Below, in pieces: positions 662 to 33,888 of a stretch of DNA of 64,000 nucleotides. The number at the start of each line of letters is the position of its first letter. Position 1 is the stretch's first letter. The translations under genes were made by a program, and so were the position numbers. The stretch is from the NCBI GenBank assembly GCA_028279505.1, contig JANQNP010000042.1:93-64092 (forward strand), read 5' to 3'. The notes beneath the pieces are model-generated. The model was not told where the DNA came from, made no database searches, and was given only the letters and a program-made list of their open reading frames with translations. This DNA comes from Dehalococcoidia bacterium (GTDB lineage: Bacteria; Chloroflexota; Dehalococcoidia; UBA2979).

Positions 662-668
662 TGCACCG

Positions 669-11552: not shown

Positions 11553-11696
11553 TTTGCAAACATTCGCAACTTGGCGACACGTTGACCGGCTAGCGCGCTG
11601 GAACGGCCGGGATGCCTGCTCGCTCAGGGGGCAGCGGGCTTGCTTAACGCGAAAATTCGCATCAAGATACGATTCGTTTCTGCGAATCTTTGCGAA
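11553..11696. promoter_or_regulatory. AT-rich intergenic region with repeated TTCGCA/TGCGAA hexamers and short palindromes. Candidate operator/promoter for the downstream peptide ABC operon.
   Basis: TTTGCAAA palindrome at 11553-11560. TTCGCA at 11564 and 11656. GCGAAaaTTCGC near-palindrome at 11649-11660. TGCGAA at 11681 and 11691 (10-bp spacing). ATTCGCA/TGCGAAT inverted pair. Local AT content is well above the genome background. Confidence 0.35.
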
Positions 11697-11714
11697 AGTG
11701 ATCGAGGTGCATGG

Positions 11715-13367: not shown

Positions 13368-13376
13368 CTCCGCGCC

Positions 13377-18843: not shown

Positions 18844-20523
18844 CTAGTCGTCGATCCAGACCTCGTTCAGGCTGATGAACCAGGACTGGGGCTGGACGAA
18901 GCCCTTCACCTTCGGCGAGAGCGCCCGGAAGTTGAGGTCGTGCACGGTCACGAGGACCGGCGCGTCCTTCATCATCGTGGACTGGAACTCGGCGAGGATG
19001 GAATCCTGCTCCACCTTGTCGAAGCTGGCGGCCGCCGCGTAGTAGAGCGCGTCGACGTCCGGGTTGTCGTAGCCCGGCTGGTTGCAGCAGCCATCCGGCG
19101 GGATGAAGTCGCTGACGTAGAGCCGCCACCCGGTCGGGGCGACCGGCGCGAGTGAGATGTACGACATGTCGTACTGCTCCCAATCGGGGTGCTGGAAGCC
19201 CTGACGCAGCGCGGTGATGATGTTGTTCCACTCGATCGGGATCAGCTCGAGCTCGATCCCGACGGCGTCGAGGTCTTGCTTCAGCTTCTCGTTCATCGGA
19301 CCGGGGAACATGTTCCCGGAGCCGCCGGTCGGGTAGATCAGGCTCAGCTCAACGCCGCCGTCCGGGAATCCGGCCTCGGCGAGGAGGTCCCTCGCCCGCT
19401 GTGGGTCGTAGCTGTAGCCCTCCCAGCTCTCGTCGTACCAGGGGTGGCCCGGGTACATGTACTGAGTCGCGGGGAAGCCGACGTTGTTGATCAGCGTCGA
19501 GGTGCCCTCACGGTCGACGGCGTAGTTCAGCGCCTGGCGGATCAGCGGGTCCTGGAGCGGCCCGTTGTGCAGGTTGAGCTGGTACGTGATGACGTGTGGG
19601 TACTCCTTGAGCAGGACCTGGAAGTCCTGGGCCTCGAGGAGGTCGAGCGCGTCGGGGGGCGGCAGCTCCGCCCAGTCGATGTCGCCGGCCTGCAGCGCCG
19701 CGAGGCGGGTCGCCGGCTCGGGCATCGGGTAGAGCTCGATCCTGTCGAGCTTGGGGCGACCGCCCCAGTAGTCCTCGAAGGCGGTCAGCTCCATGATCTG
19801 GCCGTCGATGTACTCGGTCATCACGAACGGGCCGGTGCCAGTCGCGCTCTTGATGTAGTCGTCATTGCCGGCCTCCATCACCGCTTCCGGGCTGGGGAAG
19901 TAGATGTAAGCGAGGTCGTACGGCAGGAACGAGTAGGGCACGGCCGTGGAGATCTCGATGGTGTAGTCGTCGAGCATCGCGATCTCTTCGATCTGCGCGA
20001 GGCTCGAGGCGTTCGAAGCGGCGAGGCTGCTGTCGTAGTACTCGAAGTCCTCGTCACGGAGCCGGCTGAACTGGAACATGACGTCTTCGGCCTCGAAGGT
20101 CGTGCCGTCGTGGAAGACGACGTCCTCGCGGAGCTTGAACGTCCAGGTGAGCTGGTCCTCGGAGATCTCGTAGGACTCGGCGAGGGCGGGCACCGGCTCG
20201 GGTACCTCGTCGCCCTGCTCGACGGTCCAGCGGAAGAGTCCGTCGTAGATCTGATAGCCGACGAAGCGGCGTCCCTCGAAGCCCTCGTTGGGTGGGGTGT
20301 TCGGGAACGGGATGTTCCCGGCGGTCATCCCGATGCGGAGCACGCCGCCGCTGCCGCTGGTATCGGGGGTGGCGGCGACGGTTGGATCGCCGGTGCCGGT
20401 GTCGGCGGTTGCCGTGATGGTGTCGTCTCCGCCGTCGTCGCTGCCGCCACAGGCGATCAGCAACGCTCCGACCACGAGGGTCGCGAGGAACAGCGGAACC
20501 GCGCGCCACGTCTTGAAGCGCAT
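18844..20523 (-). CDS. ABC transporter substrate-binding lipoprotein, family 5 (peptide/nickel type)
   Basis: ATG at 20523 is preceded by GAGGGA. Lipoprotein signal (MRFKTWRAVPLFLATLVVGALLIACGGSDDGGDD). The tool ORF extends 63 codons further upstream without signal-peptide logic. Confidence 0.8.
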   Translation of the reverse strand: MRFKTWRAVPLFLATLVVGALLIACGGSDDGGDDTITATADTGTGDPTVAATPDTSGSGGVLRIGMTAGNIPFPNTPPNEGFEGRRFVGYQIYDGLFRWTVEQGDEVPEPVPALAESYEISEDQLTWTFKLREDVVFHDGTTFEAEDVMFQFSRLRDEDFEYYDSSLAASNASSLAQIEEIAMLDDYTIEISTAVPYSFLPYDLAYIYFPSPEAVMEAGNDDYIKSATGTGPFVMTEYIDGQIMELTAFEDYWGGRPKLDRIELYPMPEPATRLAALQAGDIDWAELPPPDALDLLEAQDFQVLLKEYPHVITYQLNLHNGPLQDPLIRQALNYAVDREGTSTLINNVGFPATQYMYPGHPWYDESWEGYSYDPQRARDLLAEAGFPDGGVELSLIYPTGGSGNMFPGPMNEKLKQDLDAVGIELELIPIEWNNIITALRQGFQHPDWEQYDMSYISLAPVAPTGWRLYVSDFIPPDGCCNQPGYDNPDVDALYYAAAASFDKVEQDSILAEFQSTMMKDAPVLVTVHDLNFRALSPKVKGFVQPQSWFISLNEVWIDD

Positions 20524-20975: not shown

Positions 20976-22025
20976 ATGGCCGTGACCGCCGTACCCGAGC
21001 GCACCGCCCGTCAGCAGCCGCGACCCTCGGTCGGCTCGGTTGCATCGAGCGCGCCCGCGCCGCTGTTGCAGGTGGAAGGACTGAAGACGCAGTTCCCGAC
21101 GCGCGGCGGGTGGCTGACCGCCGTGAACGAGGTGTCGTTCGAGCTGGCGCCGGGCACGGTGCTCGGGGTCCTCGGCGAGTCGGGCTCGGGGAAGAGCGCG
21201 ATGCTGCGGACGATCCTGGGACTGCAGCCGAAGTCGGCGCGGATCAGCGGGGAGGTGATCCTCGAGGGACGCGACCTGATCGCGATGTCAGCTCGGGAAC
21301 GCGCGGCGATGCGCGGCTCCTCGGTGTCGATGGTGTTCCAGGACCCGATGACCGCGCTCGACCCCGTCTTCTCGGTCGAGCAGCAGCTCGTGGAGACGAT
21401 CCGACGCCACCACCCGATGTCTGGGGAGGAGGCGCGCGGGCGGGCACTCGAGCTGCTGCACCTCGTGCAGATCCCGTCGCCCGAGCGGCGGCTGAAGGCG
21501 TACCCGTACGAGCTCTCGGGCGGGATGCGACAGCGGATCGTGATCGCGATGGCGTTGGTCTCCAACCCGACGCTGCTGCTGGCGGACGAACCGACGACCG
21601 CCCTCGATGTGACGGTGCAGGCACGGGTGCTCGACCTCTTCCATGAGCTCAAGGGGCGCGAGGGGATGAGCATCATCTTCGTCACGCACGACCTGTCGGT
21701 CGCCGCGGAGATCGCGGATGAGATCGCGGTGATGTACGCGGGCCGGATCGTCGAGCAAGGCAGCGTCGAGGAGCTGGTGCGCAGTCCGCAGCACCCGTAC
21801 ACGCGCGGGTTGCTCGAGGCGAACGTGCGCCCCGGTCAGGCCGATCGGCCGGAGGCGATCCGTGGCGCGCCGCCCAACCTCGCGAACCTGCCGCCGGGCT
21901 GCTCGTTCGCGCCGCGCTGCGACCTCGTGGAGGACGCGTGCTGGTCGGCGCTGCCCGAGCCGGTGCACGTGTCGGCAAGCCACTTCGCGCGCTGCCGGCT
22001 CGTCACCGCGAGTGAGTCGAACTGA
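20976..22025 (+). CDS. ABC transporter ATP-binding protein (DppD-like)
   Basis: ATG 20976 (MAVTAVPER...LLQVEGLKTQF). Walker A (GESGSGKS), signature (LSGGMRQRIVIAMA), C-terminal CxxxxC oligopeptide-type tail. Confidence 0.75.
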   Translation: MAVTAVPERTARQQPRPSVGSVASSAPAPLLQVEGLKTQFPTRGGWLTAVNEVSFELAPGTVLGVLGESGSGKSAMLRTILGLQPKSARISGEVILEGRDLIAMSARERAAMRGSSVSMVFQDPMTALDPVFSVEQQLVETIRRHHPMSGEEARGRALELLHLVQIPSPERRLKAYPYELSGGMRQRIVIAMALVSNPTLLLADEPTTALDVTVQARVLDLFHELKGREGMSIIFVTHDLSVAAEIADEIAVMYAGRIVEQGSVEELVRSPQHPYTRGLLEANVRPGQADRPEAIRGAPPNLANLPPGCSFAPRCDLVEDACWSALPEPVHVSASHFARCRLVTASESN

Positions 22026-22969
22026 TGGCGACGATCATTGGGCGCCGCGTCGCGATGGCGATCCCGACGTTGTTCGGGGTGTCGATCCTGATCTGGCTGC
22101 TGCTCTCGATCCTGCCGGGCGATCCGCTGGCGTTCCTGTTGCCGCAGGACGCGACGCCAGCCGACCGCGAACAACTCTCCGCGGACCTCGGTCTCGATCG
22201 GCCGCTGGTCGTCCGCTACGTGAGCTGGGTCGGCGACGTGATGACCGGGGACTTCGGCTACTCGCCGTTCCGTCGCCGCGACGTGTCCGAGCTGATCGCA
22301 ACCGCGTGGACGAACACCGCGATCCTCGCGGGGGTCTCGGCGGTGTTCGGTCTGACGATCGGTGTCGCCGCCGGGACGCTGGCCGGTGTCTACCGAGGCT
22401 CGCTGATCGACCGGGCCGTGACCGGGCTCGCGATCGTGGGCCTGAGCGTGCCGTCGTTCTGGATCGGGATCTTGCTGCTGATCCTGTTCTCGGCGCAGTG
22501 GGGGCTCTTACCCGCCGGCGGCATCGGGTCGCTCGAGGATGGCTATCTCGATTACGCCAAACACTTAGTGATGCCGGTGATCGCCGGCTCGCTGATCACG
22601 ATCGCGATCACGGCGCGGGTGACGCGCGCCAGCATCGTGGAGACCTACCAGCTCGAGTTCGTCGACCTGCTGCGGGCGAAGGGGCTGCGCGAGTACCAGG
22701 TGCTGCTCCACGTCTCGAAGAACGCGATGTCGCCGGTGCTGACCACGGCGGGGCTGCAGATCGGCTACCTCCTCGGCGGGTCGGTGCTGATCGAGACGAT
22801 CTTCTCGTGGCCGGGCCTCGGACAGCTGGTGTTCAACGCGATCAGCGCGCGCGACCTGCTGGTGGTGCAGGCGACGACGCTGGTGATCGCGGTGACGTTC
22901 GTCCTGCTCAACCTCGCGGTCGACATCCTGCAGATCGCGTTCGACCCACGACAGAAGGCGGCCGGGTGA
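22025..22969 (+). CDS. ABC transporter permease (DppB-like)
   Basis: ATG overlaps the upstream TGA. Polytopic permease with EAA-type loop. Confidence 0.85.
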   Translation: MATIIGRRVAMAIPTLFGVSILIWLLLSILPGDPLAFLLPQDATPADREQLSADLGLDRPLVVRYVSWVGDVMTGDFGYSPFRRRDVSELIATAWTNTAILAGVSAVFGLTIGVAAGTLAGVYRGSLIDRAVTGLAIVGLSVPSFWIGILLLILFSAQWGLLPAGGIGSLEDGYLDYAKHLVMPVIAGSLITIAITARVTRASIVETYQLEFVDLLRAKGLREYQVLLHVSKNAMSPVLTTAGLQIGYLLGGSVLIETIFSWPGLGQLVFNAISARDLLVVQATTLVIAVTFVLLNLAVDILQIAFDPRQKAAG

Positions 22970-23008
22970 TGGCAGCCCAAGTAGGGGCCGGCGGGCGGGA
23001 GGCCAGCG

Positions 23009-23923
23009 ATGGCAACTGATGCGATGACGACCGACGCTGCCGCGCTCGCGCGGCAGTGGATGGACGCGGATGCACCGGCGTCGCCGGAGTCGTACCTCCA
23101 GGCCGGCCGGCGGCGGTTCCTGCGGAACCGCGTGGGTCTCGCAGCCCTCGGTGTGCTCGGGTTGCTGGTGGTGACGGCGGTCGCCGCGCCGGTACTGACG
23201 ACGTACGACCCGAACGTGGGTGTGCCCGCAGACCGGCTGCTGCCGATCGGTGCGGACGGCCACCTCGTCGGCACCGACGAGCAGGGCCGGGACATGCTGA
23301 CGCGGCTGTTCTACGGCGGGCGGCTGTCGCTGATCGCGGGCCTGACGCCGGTGCTGATCGCGACGGTGATCGGCACGTTCCTCGGATCAATCGCCGGGTA
23401 CCTCGGCGGGTGGGTCGCGGCGATCGTGATGCGGACGATGGACATGTTCTACGCGTTCCCGGCTGTGCTGCTGGCGATCGCGATCTCGGCGTCACTGGGG
23501 CCGGGCCTCGTCAACGTGATCATCTCGATGACAATCATCTACATCGCGCCGATCGCGCGGGTGGCGGAGGCGGCGACGCGGAAGATCGTGACGGCCGAGT
23601 TCATCGAGGCGGCGCGGCTGACCGGCGCGGGGACGCCGCGGATCATCGCGACGCAGGTGCTGGCGAACATCTTCAGCCCAATCTTCGTCTACGCCTCGGG
23701 GCTGGTCGGGCTGTCGATCGTGATCGCCGCGAGCCTGTCGTTCCTCGGGCTTGGCGTGAAGCCGCCCGACGCGGAGTGGGGCTTCATGCTCAACAGCCTG
23801 CGGGGAACGATCTACGTGAACCCGTGGGTGGCGGCGCTGCCCGGGCTGTTCATCTTCGCCACTTCGATCTCGTTCAACATGCTCGCCGACGCGCTACGTG
23901 ACGCGCTCGACGTGAAGGACTAA
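23009..23923 (+). CDS. ABC transporter permease (DppC-like)
   Basis: ATG 23009; N-terminal helix and permease core. Confidence 0.85.
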   Translation: MATDAMTTDAAALARQWMDADAPASPESYLQAGRRRFLRNRVGLAALGVLGLLVVTAVAAPVLTTYDPNVGVPADRLLPIGADGHLVGTDEQGRDMLTRLFYGGRLSLIAGLTPVLIATVIGTFLGSIAGYLGGWVAAIVMRTMDMFYAFPAVLLAIAISASLGPGLVNVIISMTIIYIAPIARVAEAATRKIVTAEFIEAARLTGAGTPRIIATQVLANIFSPIFVYASGLVGLSIVIAASLSFLGLGVKPPDAEWGFMLNSLRGTIYVNPWVAALPGLFIFATSISFNMLADALRDALDVKD

Positions 23924-23955
23924 CCCCGCCCGAAACCGCGGATCAGGAGCCGACC

Positions 23956-25008
23956 GTGACCACGACCGCCCTCGAACGACACGCCACCGCCGACGAACCT
24001 GGCCGCCCGCCGCTGTTGGAGGTGAAGGGCGTCAGCAAGCGGTTTCCGGTCCGGCTCGGGCTGATGAAGAAGGGGTACGTCTCGGCGGTGGAGGACCTGT
24101 CCTTCACGGTGAAGCCGGGCACCACCTTCGGCATCGTCGGCGAGTCGGGATGCGGCAAGTCGACCGCGGCGCGACTGATCCTCGGGTTGTTCGACGTCGA
24201 CGCGGGCGATGTGCTCTTCGAAGGCCGCAACGTGGTGAGCGCGCGACGGATGCCCAACATCAAGGAGGACAGCCGTGCCCTGCGCAAGCACATGCAGATG
24301 GTCTTCCAGGATCCGCATTCGGCGCTCAACCCGCGTGCCTCGATCGGGGAGATCGTCTCGTTCCCGATGAAGGTGCACGGCTACCCGAAGGACGAGCGCC
24401 GCGAGCGGACGCAATGGCTCCTGGAACAGGTGGGGCTGCACGCGAACCACGCGTCGTACTACCCGCACCAGCTCAGCGGCGGGCAGCGGCAGCGCGTGAA
24501 CATCGCGCGGGCGCTCGCGCTCTCGCCGAAGCTCGTCGTCTGCGACGAGGCGGTGTCCGCCCTCGACAAGTCGGTGCAGGCGCAGGTGCTGAACCTGCTG
24601 CAGGACCTGCAGGCCGAGCTGGGGCTGACGTACCTGTTCATCAGCCACGACCTGAACGTGGTGCAGTACGTGAGCGACGAGGTGCTGGTGATGTACCTCG
24701 GGCAGGCGGTCGAGGTGACCTCGGCGGAGCGGCTGTACGCCGAGCCGTTGCACCCGTACTCGCAGGCGCTGCTCGCCTCGATCCCGAAGATCGGGCTCGA
24801 CGACGAGCCCTCGGTGGAGGCGCCGCGCCTCGAGGGGGAGCTGCCGAGCCCGCTCGATCCGCCCTCGGGCTGTCGCTTCCGGACGCGGTGCCCGGTCGCG
24901 ATGGACGTCTGCGCCGAGGAGCGCCCGCCGATGGTCGAGGCGGCGCCGGAGCACCACGTCGCCTGCCACCTCTATTCCGAGGGCTCGGTGGAACCGCTCG
25001 CGATCTGA
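23956..25008 (+). CDS. ABC transporter ATP-binding protein (DppF-like)
   Basis: GTG 23956 is preceded by GGAG. Walker A (GESGCGKST), signature ([14 protein letters not shown]), C-terminal Cys motif (GCRFRTRCPVAMDVC). Confidence 0.85.
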   Translation: MTTTALERHATADEPGRPPLLEVKGVSKRFPVRLGLMKKGYVSAVEDLSFTVKPGTTFGIVGESGCGKSTAARLILGLFDVDAGDVLFEGRNVVSARRMPNIKEDSRALRKHMQMVFQDPHSALNPRASIGEIVSFPMKVHGYPKDERRERTQWLLEQVGLHANHASYYPHQLSGGQRQRVNIARALALSPKLVVCDEAVSALDKSVQAQVLNLLQDLQAELGLTYLFISHDLNVVQYVSDEVLVMYLGQAVEVTSAERLYAEPLHPYSQALLASIPKIGLDDEPSVEAPRLEGELPSPLDPPSGCRFRTRCPVAMDVCAEERPPMVEAAPEHHVACHLYSEGSVEPLAI

Positions 25009-25070
25009 CCGCGACGCGATCCCGCCCGACCCGCGATTCGATATGCCAGCCGTCCGAGAAGGGAATCCGA

Positions 25071-25283
25071 ATGCCAGTGCCAGAGAACGTCGAAGCCGCC
25101 GTGCGGGGGATGGTCGATGCCGCGGGGTTGCCTGTCAGCGAGGAGGAGTTCGACTCCTTCGTTGCGATGTACCCGACGCTCCGGGAGGCCGCCGATGGCC
25201 TCTATATAGAGGACGTGCGCTACGAGGAGCCGGCGCTCATCTTCACGCCCGTTGCTCCAACGCCGGCCGCGGTCAAGGAGTAA
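25071..25283 (+). CDS. Small (70 aa) GatC-like / AtzG-like protein. Candidate small subunit for the downstream amidases.
   Basis: ATG 25071 is preceded by GAAGGGAA. Acidic helical protein with a GatC-like pattern (L-PVSEEEFDSFVAMYPTLREAADGLYIEDVRYEEPA). Its TAA is 5 nt before the amidase GTG. Confidence 0.45.
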   Translation: MPVPENVEAAVRGMVDAAGLPVSEEEFDSFVAMYPTLREAADGLYIEDVRYEEPALIFTPVAPTPAAVKE

Positions 25284-25287
25284 GGCG

Positions 25288-26700
25288 GTGACACTCCCAG
25301 ACACGATCGAAGCGGCAGCCACCGCGCTGCGCGCGGGCGAGGTCACGAGCGTCGAACTGACCGAGGAGGCGCTCCGGAAGATCGAGGCGATGAACGACGA
25401 CGTCGGCGCGTTCATCGCCGTGAGCGAGAGGGCGATGGAGCAGGCTGCACGCGCCGATGCCGGCCTCGCGGCGGGCGTTGACCGGGGTCCGCTCCAGGGC
25501 ATCCCGTTCGGACTGAAGGACATCCTCGCAACGAAGGACCAGCCGTCGACGGCGAACTCGCTCGTGCTCGACCCGGCGTGGGGTGACGGCTACGACGCCG
25601 TCGTCAGCGAGCGCGTGCGCGCGGCCGGCGCCGTCATCATGGGCAAGCTCGTCCTCTCCGAGTTCGCCCTCGGGCCTCCCGATGAGGAGAAGCCGTTCCC
25701 GATCCCGAGGAACCCGTGGGCGCTCGATCGGACGCCGGGTGGATCGTCCTCGGGGACAGGCATCGCCGTCTCGACTGGGATGGTGCTGGGCGGCCTCGGG
25801 ACGGACACGGGCGGGTCGGTGCGGTTCCCGGCCGCGTACTGCGGGCACACGGGGCTGAAGGTCACCTACGGGCGCGTGCCGAAGTGGGGCTGCGTCCCGC
25901 TGGGCTACTCGCTCGACTCGATCGGGCCGATGGCGCGGTCGGCCTACGACTGCGCCGCGATCCTTGACGTGATCGCGGGGCCCGACGCGCGCGACGTGAC
26001 CGCTTCGACGGCGCCCGGTGAGGACTACCTCGGGGGGATCGACCGCAGCGTCGAGGGGCTGACGATCGGGGTGCCGCGGGCCTACTTCTTCGACCACGAG
26101 CAGCTCGACTCCGAGATGCAGGCGGCGACGGAGGCGGTGATCGCCGCGCTTGCCGACCTCGGCGCGCGGATCGTCGAAATCGAGCTGCCGCACTCCGACC
26201 TGGCGAAGGAGGCGAACACGCTGACGATGGTCAGCGAGGCGTTCGCCTACCACCGCACGGACATGGCGAGCGAGCGGTGGACGGACTATGGCGCGAAGAC
26301 GCGGATGATCATCGCGCGCGGCGCCTTCTACTCGGCGGCCGACTACGTGCAGGCCCAGCGGTTCCGGAGCTGGTACGCGAAGGCGGCCGCCTCGGTGATG
26401 GCGGAGGTCGACGCGTTGATCACGCCGACGATCATCGAGCCGGCCGCGCTCTCCGCCGAGAACGACCTCGCGAAGCGGCTGACGCAGCCGAGCTACACGG
26501 GGCCGTTCAACCTGCTGGGGTACCCGGCGCTGGCGCTGCCCTCGGGCTTCTCGTCTGACCTCGGACTGCCGCTGTCGGCGCAGATCGTCGGCGCGCCGAT
26601 GTCAGAGGCGCTGCTGCTGCGGATCGGACACGCCTACCAGCAGCAGACCGACTGGCACCTGCAGTACCCGACCGGGGTCCTCGAGGGGAGCGTCGCATGA
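25288..26700 (+). CDS. Amidase-signature family enzyme (GatA-like amidase), paralog 1
   Basis: GTG 25288 is preceded by AAGGAG. Amidase-signature Gly/Ser-rich block (PGGSSSGTGIAVSTGMVLGGLGTDTGGSVRFPAAYCG). Confidence 0.8.
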   Translation: MTLPDTIEAAATALRAGEVTSVELTEEALRKIEAMNDDVGAFIAVSERAMEQAARADAGLAAGVDRGPLQGIPFGLKDILATKDQPSTANSLVLDPAWGDGYDAVVSERVRAAGAVIMGKLVLSEFALGPPDEEKPFPIPRNPWALDRTPGGSSSGTGIAVSTGMVLGGLGTDTGGSVRFPAAYCGHTGLKVTYGRVPKWGCVPLGYSLDSIGPMARSAYDCAAILDVIAGPDARDVTASTAPGEDYLGGIDRSVEGLTIGVPRAYFFDHEQLDSEMQAATEAVIAALADLGARIVEIELPHSDLAKEANTLTMVSEAFAYHRTDMASERWTDYGAKTRMIIARGAFYSAADYVQAQRFRSWYAKAAASVMAEVDALITPTIIEPAALSAENDLAKRLTQPSYTGPFNLLGYPALALPSGFSSDLGLPLSAQIVGAPMSEALLLRIGHAYQQQTDWHLQYPTGVLEGSVA

Positions 26701-28109
26701 CGGAGATCCCACTCACGATCACGGATGCGGCGGCGGCGATGCGCGCGGGGACGCTGACGAGCCTCGAGCTGGTCGAAGCCTGCTTCGCGCATGCCGACGC
26801 GCTGGACGGGGAGCTCGGGGTCTATCTCCACCGGCTCGACGACGACGCACGAGCCGCGGCGCGGGCGGCCGACGAGGAGCTGGCCGCCGGGACCGATCGC
26901 GGTCCGCTGCACGGGATCCCGATCGGCATCAAGGACATCATCGCAACCAACGAGGCGCCGACCACCGCGCAGAGCCTCGTGCTCGACCCGGCGTGGGGGG
27001 CTCAGGGCGATGCGCCTGTAGTGGCCCGGCTGCGCGAGGCGGGCGCGATCGTGATGGGTAAGACCTCGACGATGGAGTTCGCGATCGGGATGCCGGACGC
27101 GTCGAAGCCGTTCCCGGTGCCGCGGAATCCGTGGAACACGGACACGTGGCCCGGTGGATCTTCATCCGGTAGCGGCGCCGGCGTGGCGGCCGGATTCTTC
27201 CTCGGGGCGCTGGGGACGGACACCGGTGGCTCGGTGCGGATCCCGGCCGCGTTCTGCGGCATCAGCGGGATGAAGCAGACCTTCGGCCGCGTCCCGAAGT
27301 CCGGCTGCGCGCCGCTCGGCTACTCGCTCGACCACATCGGCCCGCTGACTCGGAGCGCGCGCGACTGCGCGGCGATGCTCGGGGTGATGGCGGGTGCTGA
27401 CGCCTCGGATCCGACGACCGCGGACGTGCCGGTGCCGGACTACCTCGCGGCGCTGACCGGAAGCGTCGAGGGCCTGCGCATCGGCGTAGAGCGGGCGAAC
27501 CACCTCGATGCTCCGGGGGTGCTCCCGGAGGCGGTGGAGGCGTTCGAGGCGGCGGTGAGCTGGTTCGCCGGTGCGGGCGCGATCCTCGATGAGGTGGAGA
27601 TTTCTCGGTACGAGGCGATCCGGAACGTCGGTCTGATCACGATGCGGGGCGAGGCGAACTCGTACCACCAGAGCGACCTGCAGTCACGCTGGAGCGACTA
27701 CGGCATGTACACGAACCGTTTCGTCGCCGGCGGGGCGTTGGTGTCGGCCTCGGACTACGTCCAGGCACAGCGATTCCGCAGCCTGGCGCGCGAGCAGATG
27801 GCGGCGCTGATGAAGCCGTTCGACGTGCTGATCATGCCGACCGCCGGGATGGGGGCGCCACTCGTCGAGGGCCTCGACGACACCTCGTTCATGGGGTGGC
27901 CGGTGTTCACACCGTTCTGGAATCCGCTGGGGCTGCCGGTGCTCTCGGTGCCGATGGGGTTCACGAACGACGGGCTTCCGCTGTCGCTGCAGATCGCCGG
28001 CAAACCGTTCGATGAGGCGACGGTCTTCCGCGTCGCCGATGCGTTCCAGCAGGCGACGGATCACCATCTGCAGGTGCCGTCGCTGGTGTCAGGTGCGGTC
28101 ACCGTCTAA
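26697..28109 (+). CDS. Amidase-signature family enzyme (GatA-like amidase), paralog 2
   Basis: ATGA overlap with paralog 1. Signature block (PGGSSSGSGAGVAAGFFLGALGTDTGGSVRIPAAFCG). Roughly half of residues are identical to paralog 1 by eye. Confidence 0.8.
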   Translation: MTEIPLTITDAAAAMRAGTLTSLELVEACFAHADALDGELGVYLHRLDDDARAAARAADEELAAGTDRGPLHGIPIGIKDIIATNEAPTTAQSLVLDPAWGAQGDAPVVARLREAGAIVMGKTSTMEFAIGMPDASKPFPVPRNPWNTDTWPGGSSSGSGAGVAAGFFLGALGTDTGGSVRIPAAFCGISGMKQTFGRVPKSGCAPLGYSLDHIGPLTRSARDCAAMLGVMAGADASDPTTADVPVPDYLAALTGSVEGLRIGVERANHLDAPGVLPEAVEAFEAAVSWFAGAGAILDEVEISRYEAIRNVGLITMRGEANSYHQSDLQSRWSDYGMYTNRFVAGGALVSASDYVQAQRFRSLAREQMAALMKPFDVLIMPTAGMGAPLVEGLDDTSFMGWPVFTPFWNPLGLPVLSVPMGFTNDGLPLSLQIAGKPFDEATVFRVADAFQQATDHHLQVPSLVSGAVTV

Positions 28110-28136
28110 GCCCTCCTCCCGCGGGGACCGACACCG

Positions 28137-28170
28137 ATGCCAAGAGAAGGGGGCGGCCGATCGGCCGCCC
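28137..28170. terminator. Intrinsic-terminator-like hairpin (12-bp GC stem, GATC loop) followed by a T-rich tract, between convergent genes
   Basis: AAGGGGGCGGCC gatc GGCCGCCCCCTT followed by CTTCTT. It can serve both convergent transcripts. Confidence 0.6.
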
Positions 28171-28209
28171 CCTTCTTCTTGTCCCGAGCGAGCGGCGGGC
28201 GCCGGCGTA

Positions 28210-29895
28210 CTAGTGGGTGTCGAAGATCGCCTGGTACTCGGCGACCTTCGCAGCCGTCGCGGCGACCTCGTCGGGCGTGGGGTTCGCCGGGTCGGCGGCG
28301 GGCGGGAGCGCGCCGAGCTTCAACAGCGCCGCCATCAGCAGGATGCGCGCCTTGGTGGAAGTCAGGTTGCTGCCCGCGATCTTGACCGGGTCGGTCTTGT
28401 AGGCGTTGCCGCCGGTCGCGCCGCGGCCGACGCCGACGACGGGCATCCCGCTGAACACGGCGCGCGTCAGCGCCTGGTCGGTCGCAGTGTTCATGCTGCC
28501 GTACGGCGACGCGCCTTCACCGACGAAGCCAGCGAGTGGCGCCGCCTCGAGGTTGCGAGCGATGCGACCGAGGATCTCGACTTCGCTGTCGGCGTCGACC
28601 TCAGGGCCCGGGGGCAGGTAGCGCGCGTACTTCGCGATGGTGACGCTGGGCATCGCCTCGGGGCGGAGCAGGCCATCCGCCGTCTTCACCGCGATCGGCT
28701 CCGTGTGGATGGCTGTGCCGTCGAGGCAGATGCCCGGAACGACATCCTGTAGCTGCGTGAGGTTCAGCTCGGATGACCAGGTGTGCTTGCGGCTGGGGAC
28801 GTAGGTGAGCTGCGGGGGTGCGTAGCCGTTCATCAGCGCGACGACGCCGCCGTGGCCGCCGGTCGCCTCGTAGTTGCCGGGGCGCGCGTCGGTCTTGGTC
28901 ACCTCGCGAGCGTGAAACACCTGCTCGTCGACGATCATCACGCCGCCGACCGTGTCCCGCTCGCCGCCGTTTCGCCAGACGTTCGAGAGGATGTACTTCA
29001 CCCCATCGACGATGTTGCGGTCGCCGTCGGCGCTCACGGTCTGATGCGGCCGCTGGGAAGAGTGGCCGACGAGCGGGATGGCGGTGTCGATCAGGAGGTT
29101 CAGCCAGTACATCGACTCCTCGGTGGTGGGACTGCCCTCGAGCCACTGGGCGCCGGCGTACTCGCCGCTCGCGAGGGTGGTGGCGACCATGTTGGTCGCC
29201 TTCGCGAGCGCGACGAGGTGTGGCTCCGCCCGCAGGTGGCGCGGGTAGTAGATGAAGAAGTCGTCGCCGAGGCGCTCGGGTGGGATGTCGCCTTCGCCGC
29301 GGTCGGTGCGCTGATCCTCGGGCAGGCCCTGCTTGTAGCCGCCCGACGGCGCCGCCCGGTAGAAGTCGAACGCCGCGACCGAGGACAGCAGGTTGTTGTG
29401 CCCATCGCTATCGACGCCGAAGCGGTCGATCTCCTCGTAGATGCGCGAGGCGTCGGGATAGAAGGTCTGGCGGGCGTGGTCCTCGGGCGCGTTGGGGAAG
29501 GCGCAGGCTTCCTCCCACGGCGAGCCGTCAGCCTGCCGCCCCATATAAGGGAGCAGGTAGAGGCCGTCCGATGGATCGAGGGTGGCGACCTGGACCGGGC
29601 GATCCTCGGCGGTGGTCGGCTCCTCGTGGAACGCGCCGTCCGCGTCGAGGTAGCCGTCGGGCGGGGCGTAGAGCGCGGCCGCGTCGGCCTCGAGGGGGTG
29701 GGCGCTGAGGTAGTCGATGTAGACCGTGACAGGGGCGGCGAGGCGCTGGGCGCGCAGGGCATCGAAGCCCTCGGCGGTGCCGTTCTCGGGCAGGGTGTGG
29801 CGCTGGCGGGCCTGGCGGCTGGTGATCAGCGGCGGGCTGTTCTGGATGGTCGCGGTCGGTCCGGAGAAGACCGCGATCCTCGGAAGGTCGGGCAT
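28210..29895 (-). CDS. Atypical L-asparaginase/glutaminase-superfamily protein with a large insertion and variant catalytic motifs
   Basis: ATG 29895 (MPDLPRIAVFSGPTATIQNS) aligns with the asparaginase N-terminal TGGTIAG region. The segment LEGSPTTEESMYWLNLLIDTAIPLVGHSSQRPHQTVSADGDRNIVDG parallels the asparaginase HGTDTMEETAYFLNL...PVVxVGAMRPSTAISADGPxNL block. The C-terminal GMPVVGVGRGATGGN block also fits. About 250 aa are inserted between the two motif regions. Confidence 0.4.
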   Translation of the reverse strand: MPDLPRIAVFSGPTATIQNSPPLITSRQARQRHTLPENGTAEGFDALRAQRLAAPVTVYIDYLSAHPLEADAAALYAPPDGYLDADGAFHEEPTTAEDRPVQVATLDPSDGLYLLPYMGRQADGSPWEEACAFPNAPEDHARQTFYPDASRIYEEIDRFGVDSDGHNNLLSSVAAFDFYRAAPSGGYKQGLPEDQRTDRGEGDIPPERLGDDFFIYYPRHLRAEPHLVALAKATNMVATTLASGEYAGAQWLEGSPTTEESMYWLNLLIDTAIPLVGHSSQRPHQTVSADGDRNIVDGVKYILSNVWRNGGERDTVGGVMIVDEQVFHAREVTKTDARPGNYEATGGHGGVVALMNGYAPPQLTYVPSRKHTWSSELNLTQLQDVVPGICLDGTAIHTEPIAVKTADGLLRPEAMPSVTIAKYARYLPPGPEVDADSEVEILGRIARNLEAAPLAGFVGEGASPYGSMNTATDQALTRAVFSGMPVVGVGRGATGGNAYKTDPVKIAGSNLTSTKARILLMAALLKLGALPPAADPANPTPDEVAATAAKVAEYQAIFDTH

Positions 29896-31202: not shown

Positions 31203-32323
31203 CAGCTACCCCAGCCTCGGCGCATGCGGAGGAGCACCCAGAAGGCGATCGGGCCACCGACGATCGCGGTGGCCGCGTTCACGGGGAGGGTGAGGTTGCT
31301 GTTCGGCATCTCGGCCAGCAGCCCGCAGCCGAGCGCGACCGAGGCGCCGGTGAGGGCGCTCCCCGGCACCAGGATCCGGTGATCGGCGGAACCGAAGATG
31401 CCGCGGGTGATGTGTGGGATCGCGATCCCGAGGAAGGCGATGGGTCCGGCGAAGGCGACGACGGCGCCTGCGAGGATCGAGGCGCTGGTCAGCGTCAGCG
31501 TTCGGGCTCGTCGCACGTTCAAGCCCATGCTCCGCGCGTAGTTCTCGCCCATCAGCAGCGCGTTGAGCTGCTTCATGGAGAGCGTGGCGACCACCGTTCC
31601 CGTGCCAACCGCGGTTGCGAAGAGCGGTACATCGCCCCAGCGGACCCGCTGGAAGCTCCCGAATCCCCACTCGACGAAGACCCGGGTCTGGTTCGGGTCG
31701 GCGAAGAAGACAAGGACGGTGACGAGCGCCCCGATCAGGGCGGAGAGGACGACGCCGAGCAGGAGCACGATCACCATGTCGCGCACGATGCTGGCGACCA
31801 CGAGCATGGCGAGCAGGATGACGCCCGCCCCGAGCGCGGCGCCGAAGACGAGGCCGACGCTGGAGAGGGCCTGTGCGACGCCGCTCGCCGCCGCGCCGTC
31901 ACGGTAGAGGCCGACCGTCAGGCCGGGCAGCACGATGATGACGAGTGCGGCACCGAGGCTGGCGCCCGAGACGACCCCGAGGGTGTACGGACTCGCGAGT
32001 GGGTTTCGGAAGACGGCCTGCATCTGGAGGCCCGCCAGGCCGAGGGCGACGCCAACCAGTGTCGCGGTGATCACTCGAGGAAGCCGGATGTCTAGAACGA
32101 TCGTCGTCCAGGCGTCCCGCTCGGCCGGACGGCCGAGCAGGATGCGCGCCACCTCGTCCCAGGGGACGCGGACGGACGACCAGCTCAGCGACAGGAGCAC
32201 CGCGAGGATGAACACCGCGATGAGGAGTGAGAAGGCCACGAGCGTCCGGGTCCGGCCCCGCGTGCGCGCCGTCTCGATGTTCGGCCGCTGACGGAGCGAG
32301 ACCGCGTCTGTTGACGAGGTCAC
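31202..32323 (-). CDS. FecCD-family ABC permease (iron-chelate/cobalamin type)
   Basis: GTG 32323 overlaps the regulator's TGA (GTGA). FecCD-like helices (LVGVALGLAGLQMQAVFRNPLASPYTLGVVSGASLG). The tool ORF extends 126 codons upstream through an Arg-rich nonsense region. Confidence 0.75.
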   Translation of the reverse strand: MTSSTDAVSLRQRPNIETARTRGRTRTLVAFSLLIAVFILAVLLSLSWSSVRVPWDEVARILLGRPAERDAWTTIVLDIRLPRVITATLVGVALGLAGLQMQAVFRNPLASPYTLGVVSGASLGAALVIIVLPGLTVGLYRDGAAASGVAQALSSVGLVFGAALGAGVILLAMLVVASIVRDMVIVLLLGVVLSALIGALVTVLVFFADPNQTRVFVEWGFGSFQRVRWGDVPLFATAVGTGTVVATLSMKQLNALLMGENYARSMGLNVRRARTLTLTSASILAGAVVAFAGPIAFLGIAIPHITRGIFGSADHRILVPGSALTGASVALGCGLLAEMPNSNLTLPVNAATAIVGGPIAFWVLLRMRRGWGS

Positions 32324-33888
32324 GGCTGCTCCATCCGCACGTGGAACAGCGGCTCGTGCTCCGGAAGTACCTCGGGCGAGATCAGCGCGATCAGGTCTGC
32401 CAGCATCAGGTCGACGCGGACCCCTCCGGTGTGGAGCACGTCGCGACCGCGCCCGAAGCGGTGGAACGCCGCACCTCGCCGAGTGGCCGCGATCTGGCCG
32501 TAGACCTCCGCGGCCGCGGGGGTTGGCGAGGTGGTCTCCCAGATCGAGCTGTACCAGCAGTCGGCGTCCGCCCCGAATGCCAGCGCCTCGTCGAGATCGA
32601 TCTCGCCGAGGGTTCCCGCCTCGTTGAGCCGGGGCGAGACGCCTGCCTCGCTCAGGACGTCCTCGCCGCCGGCGTCGCGCACCAGGCCGGGCAGGAGCCA
32701 ATGCGGCCAGAAGCTGTCCCAGCTGCCGCGGTCGTTCGGGTGGCCGATCAGCACTCGCGGCCGCTGGCGGCCTCGTCGCGCGCGCTGTCTGAGGTCCAGG
32801 TAGCGGGCCTCGATCGCGGCGAACTGGCGGTTCGCCTTGGCCTCGAGATTGAAGAAGAGCGAGGCGAACTTCAGCTGCTCCGCGCAGGCGAGCGGGGGCT
32901 CGACGGCGGGGAGGAAGAAGACGGTGGGGAACCCTCGGTTCCGCCGGTTACGCCGCCATCCATGGTTCAGGCCGTAGAAGTAGACGTCGGGCTCGAGAGC
33001 CCTGATGCGGGCGATCCGCTCGTCCTCGGTTCCCGGCAAGCTCGACTCCGAGACGATCTCGTCGACCCGCGCCGAAAGCGCGCCGAGGTGGTCGATTCCC
33101 GAGGGACGGGTCCGCCATCCGAGGAGGGCGTCGGCGACCTCGAGGAACTCGATCGCGCCGAGGAGGCGGGCCTCGTCGTGCCAGACGCGCCGCACCGGCA
33201 CCTCGATGACCGTGGCGCCGCTGAGCGGCCCGACCAACCGCGGCGGCGGCGTCCCACGTTGTACGAGGACGTAGACGTCCGGGTTCCGCATCCCCGGTCG
33301 CTCGATCTCGCTACTGACGGTGAGCACCTTGTAGCTGCGCTCGTACCGGACTCGCCAGCGCTTCGCGTACCGCGGCGAGACGCGGTCGGGGAAGTAGTCG
33401 ACCGACGGGTCGTAGCGTTCCACCGGCCGGTCCAGATTCTCGGACGGCGGTGCCTGCGGACGGAGCAGTCCGAGCGTGAACTCGAGGATCGCGTCACGCC
33501 CCACGGATTCGTCGAGAAGATTGGTGACCGCCGTCTGGACCGCTCGGACCTCGTGCGGGTCCAACCCGCCGGCGTCGAGTTTCGAGATCTCACGGGCCAG
33601 ACCCCGGCTCACGAGCGGGACGTTTTCCCGACGGACTTCGCCGGGAGACATCAGCTGCTCCATCACCGGGTGTGGCAGCAGCCCGGCGCGCTCGATCAGG
33701 ATCCTCGCATCGACCTCGAGGGCCAGCGCGAGACGACCGAGCATCTCCACGGTCGCCGGCTTCCGTCCGTTCTCGAGTTTGGACAGATGTCCGTCCGAGA
33801 CGCCCGACGCTTCAGCCAACCTGCTCAGGGTGAAGCCGCGCTCCTTTCGCAGGTCGCGCAACATGGCCCCGAGTTCAGAGTGGTTCAA
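32320..33888 (-). CDS. One-component transcriptional regulator: N-terminal XRE-family HTH fused to a class III periplasmic-binding-protein (FecB/BtuF-like) domain
   Basis: HTH present (MLRDLRKERGFTLSRLAEASGVSDGHLSKLENGRKPATVEMLGRLALAL). No signal peptide. The C-terminal about 420 aa are paralogous to the adjacent secreted SBPs (DYFPDRVSPRYAKRWRVRYERSYKVLTVS; ...EVLPEHEPLFHVRMEQP). TTG 33888 has an AAGAGG RBS; an alternative ATG lies at 33864. Confidence 0.65.
   Translation of the reverse strand: MNHSELGAMLRDLRKERGFTLSRLAEASGVSDGHLSKLENGRKPATVEMLGRLALALEVDARILIERAGLLPHPVMEQLMSPGEVRRENVPLVSRGLAREISKLDAGGLDPHEVRAVQTAVTNLLDESVGRDAILEFTLGLLRPQAPPSENLDRPVERYDPSVDYFPDRVSPRYAKRWRVRYERSYKVLTVSSEIERPGMRNPDVYVLVQRGTPPPRLVGPLSGATVIEVPVRRVWHDEARLLGAIEFLEVADALLGWRTRPSGIDHLGALSARVDEIVSESSLPGTEDERIARIRALEPDVYFYGLNHGWRRNRRNRGFPTVFFLPAVEPPLACAEQLKFASLFFNLEAKANRQFAAIEARYLDLRQRARRGRQRPRVLIGHPNDRGSWDSFWPHWLLPGLVRDAGGEDVLSEAGVSPRLNEAGTLGEIDLDEALAFGADADCWYSSIWETTSPTPAAAEVYGQIAATRRGAAFHRFGRGRDVLHTGGVRVDLMLADLIALISPEVLPEHEPLFHVRMEQP

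What the first reader, a model, noticed from the sequence alone, without database searches (positions are those of the whole stretch)
20976..29895. GatC/AtzG-like small protein plus tandem amidase-signature paralogs, downstream of an ABC importer and convergent with an atypical asparaginase-like protein
A 70-aa acidic protein with a GatC-like pattern lies 5 nt upstream of two tandem 470-aa amidase-signature enzymes joined by an ATGA overlap. The layout of a small GatC-like partner with GatA-like amidases recalls the AtzG-AtzE 1-carboxybiuret hydrolase pair, and the GatC subunit of tRNA amidotransferase. No GatB is present. Convergently encoded is a 561-aa asparaginase-superfamily protein in which the Thr-containing motifs are replaced (SGPTATI for TGGTIAG; EGSPTTEE for HGTDTMEE) and a roughly 250-aa insertion is present. 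Together with the upstream ABC importer this looks like an uptake-plus-deamidation module for an unidentified amide, possibly ureide or triazine-like, built as a non-tRNA GatC/GatA-type heterocomplex.
Basis: partly seen in the sequence, partly recalled or inferred. Interest (0 to 1): 0.65.

Follow-up and report, generated by a model that had tools for sequence, protein, structure and literature searches.

The report
GatC-like subunit with tandem amidases
A tiny, unannotated protein descended from the GatC subunit of the tRNA amidotransferase sits in front of two GatA/AtzE-like amidases, behind a peptide-type ABC importer. It is a further lineage of the known "small subunit plus amidase" design, most likely used to strip ammonia from imported small amides.

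Summary
The sequence features are real. A conserved, acidic 70-aa gene (25071-25283) lies 4 nt upstream of two 470-aa amidase-signature genes. These are joined by an ATGA overlap, follow a Dpp/Opp-type ABC importer, and converge on a 561-aa asparaginase-fold gene.

The small protein matches no Pfam, NCBIfam or PDB sequence model. Four results still mark it as a truncated GatC/AtzG-type subunit:
- Its AlphaFold model (pLDDT 90) is a helical hairpin with an extended tail.
- The nine best Foldseek hits in the whole PDB are all GatC or AtzG chains.
- A profile comparison with GatC scores 27.3, against a maximum of 17.6 in 200 column shuffles.
- In all 29 related loci that extend beyond it, the gene abuts one to six tandem amidases of this clade.

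Both amidases keep the Lys/cis-Ser/Ser motifs and are closest to GatA and AtzE. They fall below every curated cut-off and lack GatA's glutamine-binding residues.

The binding protein is DppA/HbpA/GsiB-like, and no AtzD, AtzF or AtzH is present. A peptide-like amide is therefore more plausible than a ureide or triazine.

Verdict: a new variant of a known kind, of moderate interest. The complex and the substrate are inferred, not shown.

The parts
18844..20523 (-). Family-5 (DppA/HbpA/GsiB-like) substrate-binding lipoprotein, divergent from the operon
   Evidence: Pfam SBP_bac_5, E 2e-84. Best PDB relatives are the glutathione/heme-binding HbpA and the dipeptide-binding DppA. An LIACGG lipobox is visible in the translation. 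The same divergent position is kept in L018 and L020-L024.
20976..22025 (+). OppD/DppD-like ABC ATPase
   Evidence: Pfam ABC_tran plus oligo_HPY. Best NCBIfam match is OppD, 322 bits, below its cut-off.
22025..22969 (+). DppB/NikB-like permease
   Evidence: Pfam BPD_transp_1 plus BPD_transp_1_N.
23009..23923 (+). DppC/GsiD-like permease
   Evidence: Pfam BPD_transp_1 plus OppC_N.
23956..25008 (+). DppF/OppF-like ABC ATPase
   Evidence: Pfam ABC_tran plus oligo_HPY. NCBIfam dipeptide ATPase, 374 bits against a cut-off of 408.
25071..25283 (+). 70-aa acidic GatC/AtzG-like small protein, proposed to be a non-catalytic amidase subunit
   Evidence: No Pfam, NCBIfam or PDB sequence hit. The family has 331 representatives. 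AF2 model has pLDDT 90 with helices 7-18 and 24-43 and an extended tail. The Foldseek top 9 are all GatC or AtzG. hhalign against GatC: P 2.2e-4, 0 of 200 shuffles reach the score. hhalign against AtzG: P 4.3e-4 over 66 columns, 1 of 200 shuffles. It abuts an amidase-signature gene in all 29 related loci that extend beyond it.
25288..26700 (+). Amidase-signature enzyme 1 (470 aa, GTG start, AAGGAG Shine-Dalgarno inside the end of the small gene)
   Evidence: Pfam Amidase, E 1e-101. Triad motifs GLKDI, GGSSSG and GTDTGGSVR are intact. Best PDB hits are GatA at 275 bits and AtzE at 182 bits. It is below all NCBIfam cut-offs. Orthologues at 72-79% identity follow the small gene in Chloroflexota loci.
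26697..28109 (+). Amidase-signature enzyme 2 (470 aa, ATGA overlap with enzyme 1), a paralogue about 50% identical to enzyme 1
   Evidence: Pfam Amidase, E 2e-100. The triad is intact. It is 50% identical to enzyme 1 and 31-32% identical to AtzE. Orthologous second genes at 67-73% identity occur in L018, L022, L023 and L024. Members of this clade are the ones that abut the small gene in Actinomycetota.
28145..28176 (.). Perfect GC-rich inverted repeat between the convergent genes, probably a bidirectional terminator
   Evidence: Read directly from the sequence: AGAAGGGGGCGGCCG-AT-CGGCCGCCCCCTTCT, followed by TCTT. The consensus scan did not list it.
28210..29895 (-). 561-aa protein with a type II asparaginase fold and large insertions; a probable Thr-nucleophile amidohydrolase
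   Evidence: Pfam Asparaginase N-terminal domain, 31.9 bits against a cut-off of 22.5. AF2 model has pLDDT 88 and pTM 0.89. Foldseek against E. coli AnsB: E 5e-15, TM 0.70-0.76 normalised to the target. T14, T16, S255, P256 and K334 are invariant in 53 family members. More than 4,300 homologues were found. It is convergent with the amidases in L018, L020, L021, L023 and L024 as well.

Best explanation
This is a catabolic uptake-and-deamidation operon.

Proposed mechanism:
1. A DppA/GsiB-like binding protein and a Dpp/Opp-type ABC importer bring in a small, probably di- or tripeptide-sized, amide-bearing compound.
2. In the cytoplasm, two paralogous Ser-cisSer-Lys amidases hydrolyse amide bonds and release ammonia.
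3. The 70-aa protein is a truncated descendant of GatC. It keeps the N-terminal helical hairpin and the extended 'EP' segment. It lacks the C-terminal half, which in GatCAB contacts GatB (that contact is my own knowledge of the published structures).
4. By analogy with AtzG-AtzE, the small protein binds the amidase as a non-catalytic, stabilising subunit.
5. Each genome locus has one small gene but one to six amidase genes, and the small gene abuts either amidase clade in different phyla. The same small subunit therefore probably serves both paralogues.
6. The convergent asparaginase-fold enzyme, which keeps its Thr nucleophile, probably removes a further amide group from the same class of substrate.

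Shown here: the gene content, the conservation, the fold, the remote homology and the synteny.
Inferred: the physical complex, its stoichiometry, the direction of transport and the substrate.
For: - The small gene is real and conserved.
- Its fold matches GatC and AtzG. The AF2 model has pLDDT 90, and the nine best Foldseek hits among 350,542 PDB chains are eight GatC chains plus AtzG 6c62_C.
- Profile comparison with GatC covers residues 7-54 against S. aureus GatC residues 5-52. The score is 27.3; 200 column shuffles give mean 9.8, SD 2.1 and maximum 17.6.
- Profile comparison with the AtzG family is colinear over 66 columns, score 24.6, reached by 1 of 200 shuffles.
- Each of the 31 related loci has exactly one small gene. 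In all 29 that extend beyond it, the gene directly abuts an amidase of this clade. The order is small then amidase in Chloroflexota and amidase then small in Actinomycetota.
- The genes look translationally coupled: a 4-nt gap with AAGGAG, then an ATGA overlap.
- The amidases are nearest to GatA and AtzE, the two solved amidase-signature enzymes known to use such a subunit (NCBIfam scores).
- All paralogues keep the catalytic motifs.
- The ABC importer is linked to the small gene and amidases in L016, L018, L020-L026, L028, L030 and L032.
- The binding protein is closest to HbpA, DppA and GsiB.
- AtzG is documented as an obligate, non-catalytic partner without which AtzE is insoluble, and as derived from GatC (PMC6219798, read).
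Against: - No sequence model (Pfam GatC, Pfam AtzG-like, NCBIfam, PDB phmmer or hmmsearch) detects the small protein.
- hhalign probabilities are only 34-45%.
Binding is therefore an analogy.
- One small gene for several amidases does not fit a simple 1:1 obligate pairing.
- In L004 and many Dehalococcoidia genomes the small gene and amidase 1 occur without any adjacent matching ABC transporter or asparaginase-like gene. The operon-level function may not be general.
- Nothing identifies the substrate.
Confidence: 0.6

Rival explanations
1. The small protein and amidase 1 are the organism's genuine but divergent GatC-GatA of the tRNA-dependent amidotransferase, with GatB encoded elsewhere. Amidase 2 would be a spare paralogue.
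For: The best PDB hits of both amidases are GatA. The small protein aligns with the N-terminal half of GatC. In L004-L006 the orthologous pair sits among translation genes: prfA, prmC, hisS, metG and relA.
Against: - TIGR00132 GatA scores are 281 and 263 bits against a cut-off of 481.
- The small protein ends where GatC's C-terminal half begins. It is 66-70 aa against the 92-104-aa stand-alone GatC chains, and the alignment stops at residue 54.
- The positions aligned to S. aureus GatA Arg358 and Asp425 are Ile and Pro in amidase 1 (alignment). That these two residues bind glutamine is from my own memory of the GatCAB structure paper.
- One Dehalococcoidia chromosome carries two copies of the pair, L013 and L017.
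- Arrays of up to six paralogues and linkage to an ABC importer do not fit a housekeeping enzyme.
Confidence: 0.05
2. It is an AtzEG/HpxXY-type ureide-branch enzyme (1-carboxybiuret, oxalurate or a similar substrate).
For: The architecture is the same: a small gene directly upstream of a GatA-like amidase. AtzE-family models are the second-best NCBIfam hits. hhalign against the AtzG family is colinear end to end. atzG-atzE clusters are often found next to ABC transporters and other amidases (PMC6219798).
Against: - AtzE models score 285-290 bits against a cut-off of 461, and 267-272 against 426.
- Identity to AtzE is only 31-33%.
- Pfam AtzG-like (PF13318) detects AtzG itself but none of 150 members of this family.
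- No AtzH/HpxZ, AtzD, AtzF or allophanate hydrolase was found among the scanned ORFs of the window.
- The transporter is peptide-type, whereas a BMP-family binding protein and its ABC transporter lie near the atz genes on pADP-1.
Confidence: 0.08
3. The small protein is not a stoichiometric subunit. It would be a transient assembly factor or chaperone, or a regulator, for a family of amidases that function alone as homodimers.
For: There is one small gene per locus but up to six amidase genes. The small-protein family diverges very fast compared with the amidases: 36-50% against 55-60% identity in the same loci.
Against: The only characterised precedents, GatC and AtzG, are stable subunits (PMC6219798). 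The tight translational coupling to the first amidase suggests co-production. A possible natural fusion to an amidase exists in Blastococcus (L036), though the match is weak.
Confidence: 0.17
4. The adjacency means nothing functionally. The small ORF would be a conserved leader or upstream ORF, or an annotation artefact, and the amidases would be generic stand-alone enzymes.
For: No curated model recognises the small ORF. In high-GC DNA long spurious ORFs are common; one search lists 120 ORFs in 22 kb.
Against: The family has 331 representatives with conserved residues. GC3 and substitution pattern are coding-like. The AF2 model is confident. The gene keeps its adjacency even where gene order is inverted.
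Confidence: 0.03

Closest known systems
AtzG-AtzE, the 1-carboxybiuret hydrolase of Pseudomonas sp. ADP (PDB 6C62)
   Same: - A roughly 68-70-aa non-enzymatic protein is encoded directly upstream of a GatA-like amidase-signature enzyme.
- The small protein is a helical hairpin with an extended tail ending in a Pro-rich motif.
- It lacks the GatB-contacting half of GatC, and there is no GatB.
- The setting is nitrogen catabolism, near ABC transporters.
   Different: - Pfam AtzG-like does not detect the small protein.
- The amidases are only 31-33% identical to AtzE and score far below the AtzE cut-offs.
- There are no AtzD, AtzH or AtzF neighbours.
- There are two to six tandem amidase paralogues per small gene.
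- The hosts are Chloroflexota and Actinomycetota, not Proteobacteria.
- The importer is peptide-type and an asparaginase-fold enzyme is attached.
GatC-GatA of the bacterial GatCAB tRNA-dependent amidotransferase (e.g. PDB 2DF4, 4WJ3)
   Same: - The small protein aligns with GatC residues 5-52, a better profile score than AtzG itself gives against GatC.
- GatA is the best-scoring solved relative of both amidases.
- The gene order is small, then amidase.
   Different: - The C-terminal 40 or so residues of GatC are absent.
- No GatB was found in the window.
- The GatA equivalog cut-off is not reached.
- The positions aligned to the GatA glutamine-binding residues differ.
- The genes are duplicated and linked to a transporter.
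Stand-alone amidase-signature hydrolases, such as peptide amidase Pam (1M21) and 6-aminohexanoate cyclic-dimer hydrolase NylA (3A2P)
   Same: They share the Ser-cisSer-Lys fold and catalytic motifs. A peptide-amide substrate would fit the Dpp-type importer.
   Different: They score clearly lower (about 145-160 bits, against 200-275 for GatA). To my knowledge they need no small subunit.
Type II L-asparaginase / glutaminase-asparaginase (E. coli AnsB, PDB 3ECA), for the convergent 561-aa gene
   Same: Both domains of the fold are present (Foldseek E 5e-15, TM 0.70-0.76 normalised to the target). Equivalents of Thr12 and Lys162 are invariant, and Thr89 is conservatively Ser.
   Different: Asp90 is an invariant Pro. 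About 230 extra residues are present, mainly one insertion between the first strand and the second motif. The protein scores 68 bits against the 314-bit cut-off of TIGR00520. It belongs to a large separate family of about 560-575 aa spread over several phyla.

Membership tests
GatCAB amidotransferase | The small subunit matches the GatC sequence family (Pfam or PDB GatC sequences) | tested here: not met
   No Pfam hit even at E<=10. No PDB hit with the single sequence or with profiles of 20 or 150 members.
GatCAB amidotransferase | GatC-like fold and remote homology in the N-terminal helical hairpin | tested here: met
   Eight of the Foldseek top 9 are GatC chains. hhalign score is 27.3, P 2.2e-4, against a shuffle maximum of 17.6 in 200 trials.
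GatCAB amidotransferase | The C-terminal half of GatC (residues about 55-95), which in GatCAB reaches GatB | tested here: not met
   The protein is 70 aa (family members 60-80 aa). The alignment to GatC ends at residue 54, matching GatC residue 52.
GatCAB amidotransferase | The amidase reaches the GatA equivalog cut-off (TIGR00132, 481 bits) | tested here: not met
   281 and 263 bits.
GatCAB amidotransferase | A GatB partner | tested here: not met
   No GatB-type domain among the ORFs I scanned in the 64-kb window. The rest of the genome could not be searched.
GatCAB amidotransferase | Glutamine-binding Arg358 and Asp425 of S. aureus GatA (residue roles from my own knowledge) | tested here: not met
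   The aligned positions in amidase 1 are Ile and Pro (alignment to 2df4_A).
AtzEG 1-carboxybiuret hydrolase | The small subunit matches Pfam AtzG-like (PF13318) | tested here: not met
   AtzG itself scores 36 bits. None of 150 members of this family matches at E<=1.
AtzEG 1-carboxybiuret hydrolase | Remote profile or fold similarity of the small subunit to AtzG | tested here: inconclusive
   hhalign is colinear over 66 columns, P 4.3e-4, probability 34%. One of 200 shuffles reaches the score and none reaches 60 columns. Foldseek places 6c62_C at rank 5 with TM 0.59 normalised to the target and E 0.77.
AtzEG 1-carboxybiuret hydrolase | The amidase reaches the AtzE-family cut-offs (NF006631, 461 bits; TIGR02715, 426 bits) | tested here: not met
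   285-290 bits and 267-272 bits. Identity to AtzE is 31-33%.
AtzEG 1-carboxybiuret hydrolase | AtzH/HpxZ, AtzD or AtzF in the cluster | tested here: not met
   None in the window or in the related loci, which were compared with the window proteins and AtzE.
AtzEG 1-carboxybiuret hydrolase | Obligate heteromer: the amidase is insoluble without the small subunit | not testable with these tools
   This needs co-expression.
Amidase signature (AS) superfamily | Pfam PF01425 over the full length, with the Lys / cis-Ser / Ser triad motifs | tested here: met
   E 1e-101 and 2e-100. The K of G[LI]KDI, GGSSSG and GTDTGGSVR are present in both genes and in all 25 related paralogues examined.
Dpp/Opp-type ABC importer | A family-5 binding protein, two permeases, and two ATPases with the oligo_HPY C-terminal domain | tested here: met
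   All five components were found. None reaches an NCBIfam equivalog cut-off, so the substrate class is not assigned.
Type II L-asparaginase | Fold, plus the catalytic residues Thr12, Thr89, Asp90 and Lys162 | tested here: inconclusive
   The fold is met. Thr12 is T14 and Lys162 is K334, both invariant. Thr89 is S255 and Asp90 is P256. The Pfam N-terminal domain is above its cut-off, the C-terminal domain is below, and the NCBIfam models are far below.

The most novel reading that the evidence does not exclude
GatC-derived mini-subunits may be a widespread, fast-evolving and almost entirely unannotated accessory of a large clade of non-tRNA amidase-signature enzymes across Chloroflexota, Actinomycetota and Proteobacteria. 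In loci such as this one, a single mini-subunit may be shared by several paralogous amidases (one for up to six). Many database 'amidases' would then be incomplete enzymes that misfold or stay inactive when expressed alone.
Probability: 0.35. Interest if true: 0.55.

Novelty: new variant of a known kind. Interest (0 to 1): 0.4.

Why it matters
Amidase-signature enzymes are much used as biocatalysts, for amides, nylon oligomers, urethanes and herbicides. Many fail on heterologous expression.

The AtzG-AtzE case showed that a hidden 68-aa gene can be the missing piece. Here a third, sequence-distinct lineage of such GatC relics appears. It has 331 cluster representatives, carries no Pfam or NCBIfam model, and was called 'hypothetical protein' where I saw an annotation.

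That has three practical uses:
- It gives annotators a concrete family to model.
- It tells experimenters to co-express the small gene.
- It provides a natural system, one small subunit with several paralogous amidases, for asking how GatCA-derived complexes diversified after losing GatB.

It does not reveal a new kind of mechanism.

Tried and rejected
Sequence-level detection of the small protein all failed:
- Pfam and NCBIfam scans, including Pfam at E<=10.
- phmmer against the PDB, and profile searches with 20 and with 150 members.
- Scans of every family member against Pfam.
- A pairwise Smith-Waterman alignment to AtzG was no better than shuffles, with 326 of 500 reaching the score.
- tblastn of the small protein against plasmids found nothing.

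Searches that needed changing or told me nothing:
- Literature searches found no description of this family.

Readings considered and rejected: genuine GatCA, an AtzEG orthologue, and a spurious ORF. The reasons are given under the rival explanations.

Not done: a proper maximum-likelihood phylogeny including GatA, AtzF and biuret or allophanate hydrolases. Full reference sequences were not retrievable. Only an NJ tree of the locus paralogues rooted on AtzE was made.

Full report
**1. What is there**

The window is about 70% G+C, so most listed ORFs are spurious. Codon-position GC and domain searches pick out one co-directional gene set.

| Coordinates | Strand | Gene |
|---|---|---|
| 20976-22025 | + | OppD/DppD-like ATPase |
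| 22025-22969 | + | permease |
| 23009-23923 | + | permease |
| 23956-25008 | + | DppF-like ATPase |
| 25071-25283 | + | 70-aa ORF |
| 25288-26700 | + | amidase-signature gene 1 |
| 26697-28109 | + | amidase-signature gene 2 |

- The matching family-5 substrate-binding lipoprotein is divergent, at 18844-20523 on the minus strand.
- The 70-aa ORF ends in TAA. Four bases later the first amidase starts at GTG, with AAGGAG inside the end of the small gene.
- The two amidase genes overlap in ATGA.
- A perfect GC-rich hairpin at 28145-28176 separates them from a convergent 561-aa asparaginase-like gene at 28210-29895.

**2. The small ORF is a real gene**

- It is acidic: pI 4.05, with 14 D+E against 4 K+R.
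- It has coding-type GC by codon position, 0.73/0.43/0.83.
- Against five orthologues it has 17-26 synonymous and 15-17 non-synonymous codon differences out of 63 codons.
- A word-indexed search found 23 homologues at 66-90% identity, all 62-86 aa.
- An exhaustive profile search found 331 cluster representatives at E<=1e-3, nearly all 56-100 aa.
- Conserved positions include V11, E26, Y34, P35, R38, D42 and the block R-Y-E-E-P-A-L-x-F.

**3. What the small protein is**

No curated model sees it. Pfam and NCBIfam give nothing, Pfam even at E<=10. phmmer and profile searches of all PDB sequences give only noise. None of 150 family members matches Pfam GatC or AtzG-like, although AtzG itself matches PF13318.

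Structure and profile-profile comparison tell a different story.

- AlphaFold2 with the family alignment gives pLDDT 90. The model has helix 7-18, a turn, helix 24-43, then an extended tail.
- Foldseek against 350,542 PDB chains returns GatC of five organisms as eight of the top nine hits, with AtzG (6c62_C) at rank 5. Everything below that is unrelated.
- Each Foldseek E-value alone is weak (0.24-1.9). The exclusive composition of the top of the list is the evidence.
- I took five GatC sequences from PDB alignments. hhalign aligns family residues 7-54 with S. aureus GatC residues 5-52 at score 27.3 and P 2.2e-4.
- Two hundred column-shuffled GatC alignments give mean 9.8, SD 2.1 and maximum 17.6.
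- Against an AtzG-family alignment the match is colinear over 66 columns with score 24.6 and P 4.3e-4.
- One of 200 shuffles reaches that score, and none aligns more than 34 columns.
- AtzG against GatC gives only P 0.16 in the same test. This family therefore lies, in sequence, between the two accepted relatives.
- The protein stops where the C-terminal half of GatC begins, as AtzG does.

**4. Genomic association**

A scan of one genome per species returned 28 loci in Chloroflexota (mostly Dehalococcoidia), Acidimicrobiia, Gemmatimonadota and Actinomycetota. I added three more: L004, L039 and the window itself.

- Every one of the 31 loci contains exactly one small gene.
- In all 29 that extend beyond it, the small gene directly abuts an amidase of this clade. 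L025 ends at the contig edge, and in L027 the adjacent amidase is split into three fragments, by frameshifts or assembly errors.
- The number of tandem amidases per locus ranges from one to six (L028).
- In Chloroflexota the order is small gene then amidase. In Amycolatopsis, Nocardia and Nonomuraea it is amidase then small gene.
- The Dpp-type importer accompanies the genes in L016, L018, L020-L026, L028, L030 and L032.
- In L004 and many Dehalococcoidia, the small gene and the amidase 1 orthologue (79% identical) have no adjacent matching importer. In L004 they sit among housekeeping genes.

**5. The amidases**

- Both match Pfam Amidase over the full length, at E about 1e-100.
- Both keep the Lys, cis-Ser and Ser motifs, as do all 25 related paralogues inspected.
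- They are 50% identical to each other and 31-33% identical to AtzE.
- Among solved structures the best hits are GatA (275 and 237 bits), then AtzE (182 and 195). Peptide amidase, FAAH, NylA, allophanate hydrolase and malonamidase score lower.
- Among NCBIfam models the best are a generic 'amidase' (PRK06169), the AtzE family and GatA, all far below their cut-offs.
- The positions aligned with S. aureus GatA Arg358 and Asp425 are Ile and Pro in amidase 1. From memory, these two residues hold the glutamine substrate in GatA.
- An NJ tree rooted on AtzE splits the locus paralogues into an amidase 1 clade and an amidase 2 clade.
- Orthologues of both amidases are retained in L018, L022, L023 and L024, so the duplication is old.
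- The small gene abuts amidase 1-type genes in Chloroflexota. It abuts amidase 2-type genes in Actinomycetota, where no amidase 1-type gene is present. This is the basis for proposing that both paralogues use the small subunit.

**6. Wider distribution**

Plasmid-borne proteobacterial homologues of amidase 1 (39-43% identity) in Aminobacter and Thioclava also have a 66-aa or 81-aa 'hypothetical protein' gene abutting their start. Those proteins barely match the present family's profile. The small partner therefore seems general in this part of the amidase tree, and it evolves quickly.

The published work on atzG-atzE-atzH clusters covers Proteobacteria only (PMC6219798). I found no paper describing the present family.

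**7. The asparaginase-like protein**

- It belongs to a large family of proteins of about 560-575 aa that is well conserved (58-75% identity) across Actinomycetota, Acidimicrobiia, Beta- and Deltaproteobacteria. The search returned 4,367 hits.
- The AF2 model (pLDDT 88, pTM 0.89) matches E. coli asparaginase II across both domains, at E 5e-15 and TM 0.70-0.76 normalised to the target.
- In the alignment to solved asparaginases, EGSPT corresponds to HGTDT and VTKTD contains the Lys162 equivalent.
- By position, S11-G12-P13-T14 corresponds to T9-G10-G11-T12.
- In 53 family members T14, T16, E253-G254-S255-P256 and K334 are invariant.
- The nucleophilic Thr and the Lys are therefore kept, Thr89 is Ser, and only Asp90 is replaced, by Pro. 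The protein looks like an active amidohydrolase with altered specificity, not a dead one.
- It is convergent with the amidases in five related loci as well.
- In Blastococcus it lies between a family-5 binding protein and an amidase, next to a Dpp-type importer.
- Elsewhere it sits beside a TctC-type binding protein or a nitrile hydratase. Each of those settings points to imported or newly made amides.

**8. Likely function**

The binding protein's nearest solved relatives are the glutathione/heme-binding HbpA, the dipeptide-binding DppA and GsiB/YliB. No AtzD, AtzF or AtzH homologue and no urea- or BMP-type transporter was found among the scanned ORFs of the window.

I therefore favour uptake of a small peptide-like amide. 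The GatC-like/amidase complexes and the asparaginase-fold enzyme would then hydrolyse it for nitrogen. The substrate is a guess, the complex is an inference from homology and synteny, and neither has been tested.

**9. Verdict**

- The ureide or triazine suggestion is not supported.
- The claim that the catalytic Thr has been lost is not supported.
- The locus is a third lineage of a known architecture, after GatCA and AtzEG. Its new features are a small-subunit family with no curated model, and one small gene serving arrays of amidase paralogues.
- Interest is moderate.

Noticed in passing
L028:7998-16177 and L029:4079-10026: A Tepidiformaceae locus has one small GatC-like gene followed by six tandem amidase-signature paralogues. 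A Dehalococcoidia locus has one small gene followed by four. All inspected copies keep the catalytic motifs.
   Followed up: partly
L036:16981-17710 (Blastococcus sp., contig JBJHAO010000006.1): A 551-aa amidase, cut off by the locus end, has an N-terminal extension of about 90 aa. The extension weakly matches the small-protein profile (13.6 bits, residues 3-37). This may be a natural fusion of mini-subunit and amidase, and it lies in a locus that also holds the asparaginase-like gene and a Dpp-type importer.
   Followed up: partly
L040:3801-5428 (Aminobacter plasmid pMDW2) and L041:3720-5371 (Thioclava plasmid p2): Proteobacterial homologues of amidase 1 (39-43% identity) each have a 66-aa or 81-aa 'hypothetical protein' gene abutting their start. 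The sequences are almost unrecognisable to the present family's profile or to the AtzG profile.
   Followed up: partly
L038:1618-4849: In a deltaproteobacterial MAG, the 569-aa member of the asparaginase-like family lies directly upstream of the nitrile hydratase alpha and beta subunit genes. This suggests it can act as the amidase step of a nitrile pathway.
   Followed up: no
window 28145-28176: A perfect 15-bp GC-rich inverted repeat (AGAAGGGGGCGGCCG / CGGCCGCCCCCTTCT) lies between the convergent amidase 2 and asparaginase-like genes. It is probably a bidirectional terminator. The consensus terminator scan did not list it.
   Followed up: partly
window 11586-17177: A second Dpp/Opp-type system lies just upstream. 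It has a family-5 binding protein (11586-13367), an alpha/beta-hydrolase or S33/S15/S9-type peptidase (13368-14390), a permease (14390-15337) and a 630-aa ORF carrying an ABC ATPase with an oligo_HPY domain.
   Followed up: no
window 32320-33888 (-) and 33928-35283 (+): Two divergently transcribed ORFs end in similar C-terminal sequences (LPEHEPLFHVRMEQP and LLPEHEFVWHTRLEP). The first has an N-terminal HTH_31/HTH_3 domain and the second has no Pfam match. They may be diverged paralogues.
   Followed up: no
window 390-2657 and 3835-5733: Two FHA-domain proteins. The second combines an MFS transporter domain with C-terminal FHA domains, which is an unusual combination.
   Followed up: no
window 7842-11462 (-) and 41577-45335 (-): Two very long ORFs (about 1,200 aa) each hold two ABC_membrane and two ABC_tran domains, so they are fused full-length ABC exporters. 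The first coincides with a strong local GC skew of 0.19-0.25.
   Followed up: no
L013 and L017 (both on OZ219871.1): One Dehalococcoidia chromosome carries two separate copies of the pair of small gene and amidase 1-type gene.
   Followed up: no
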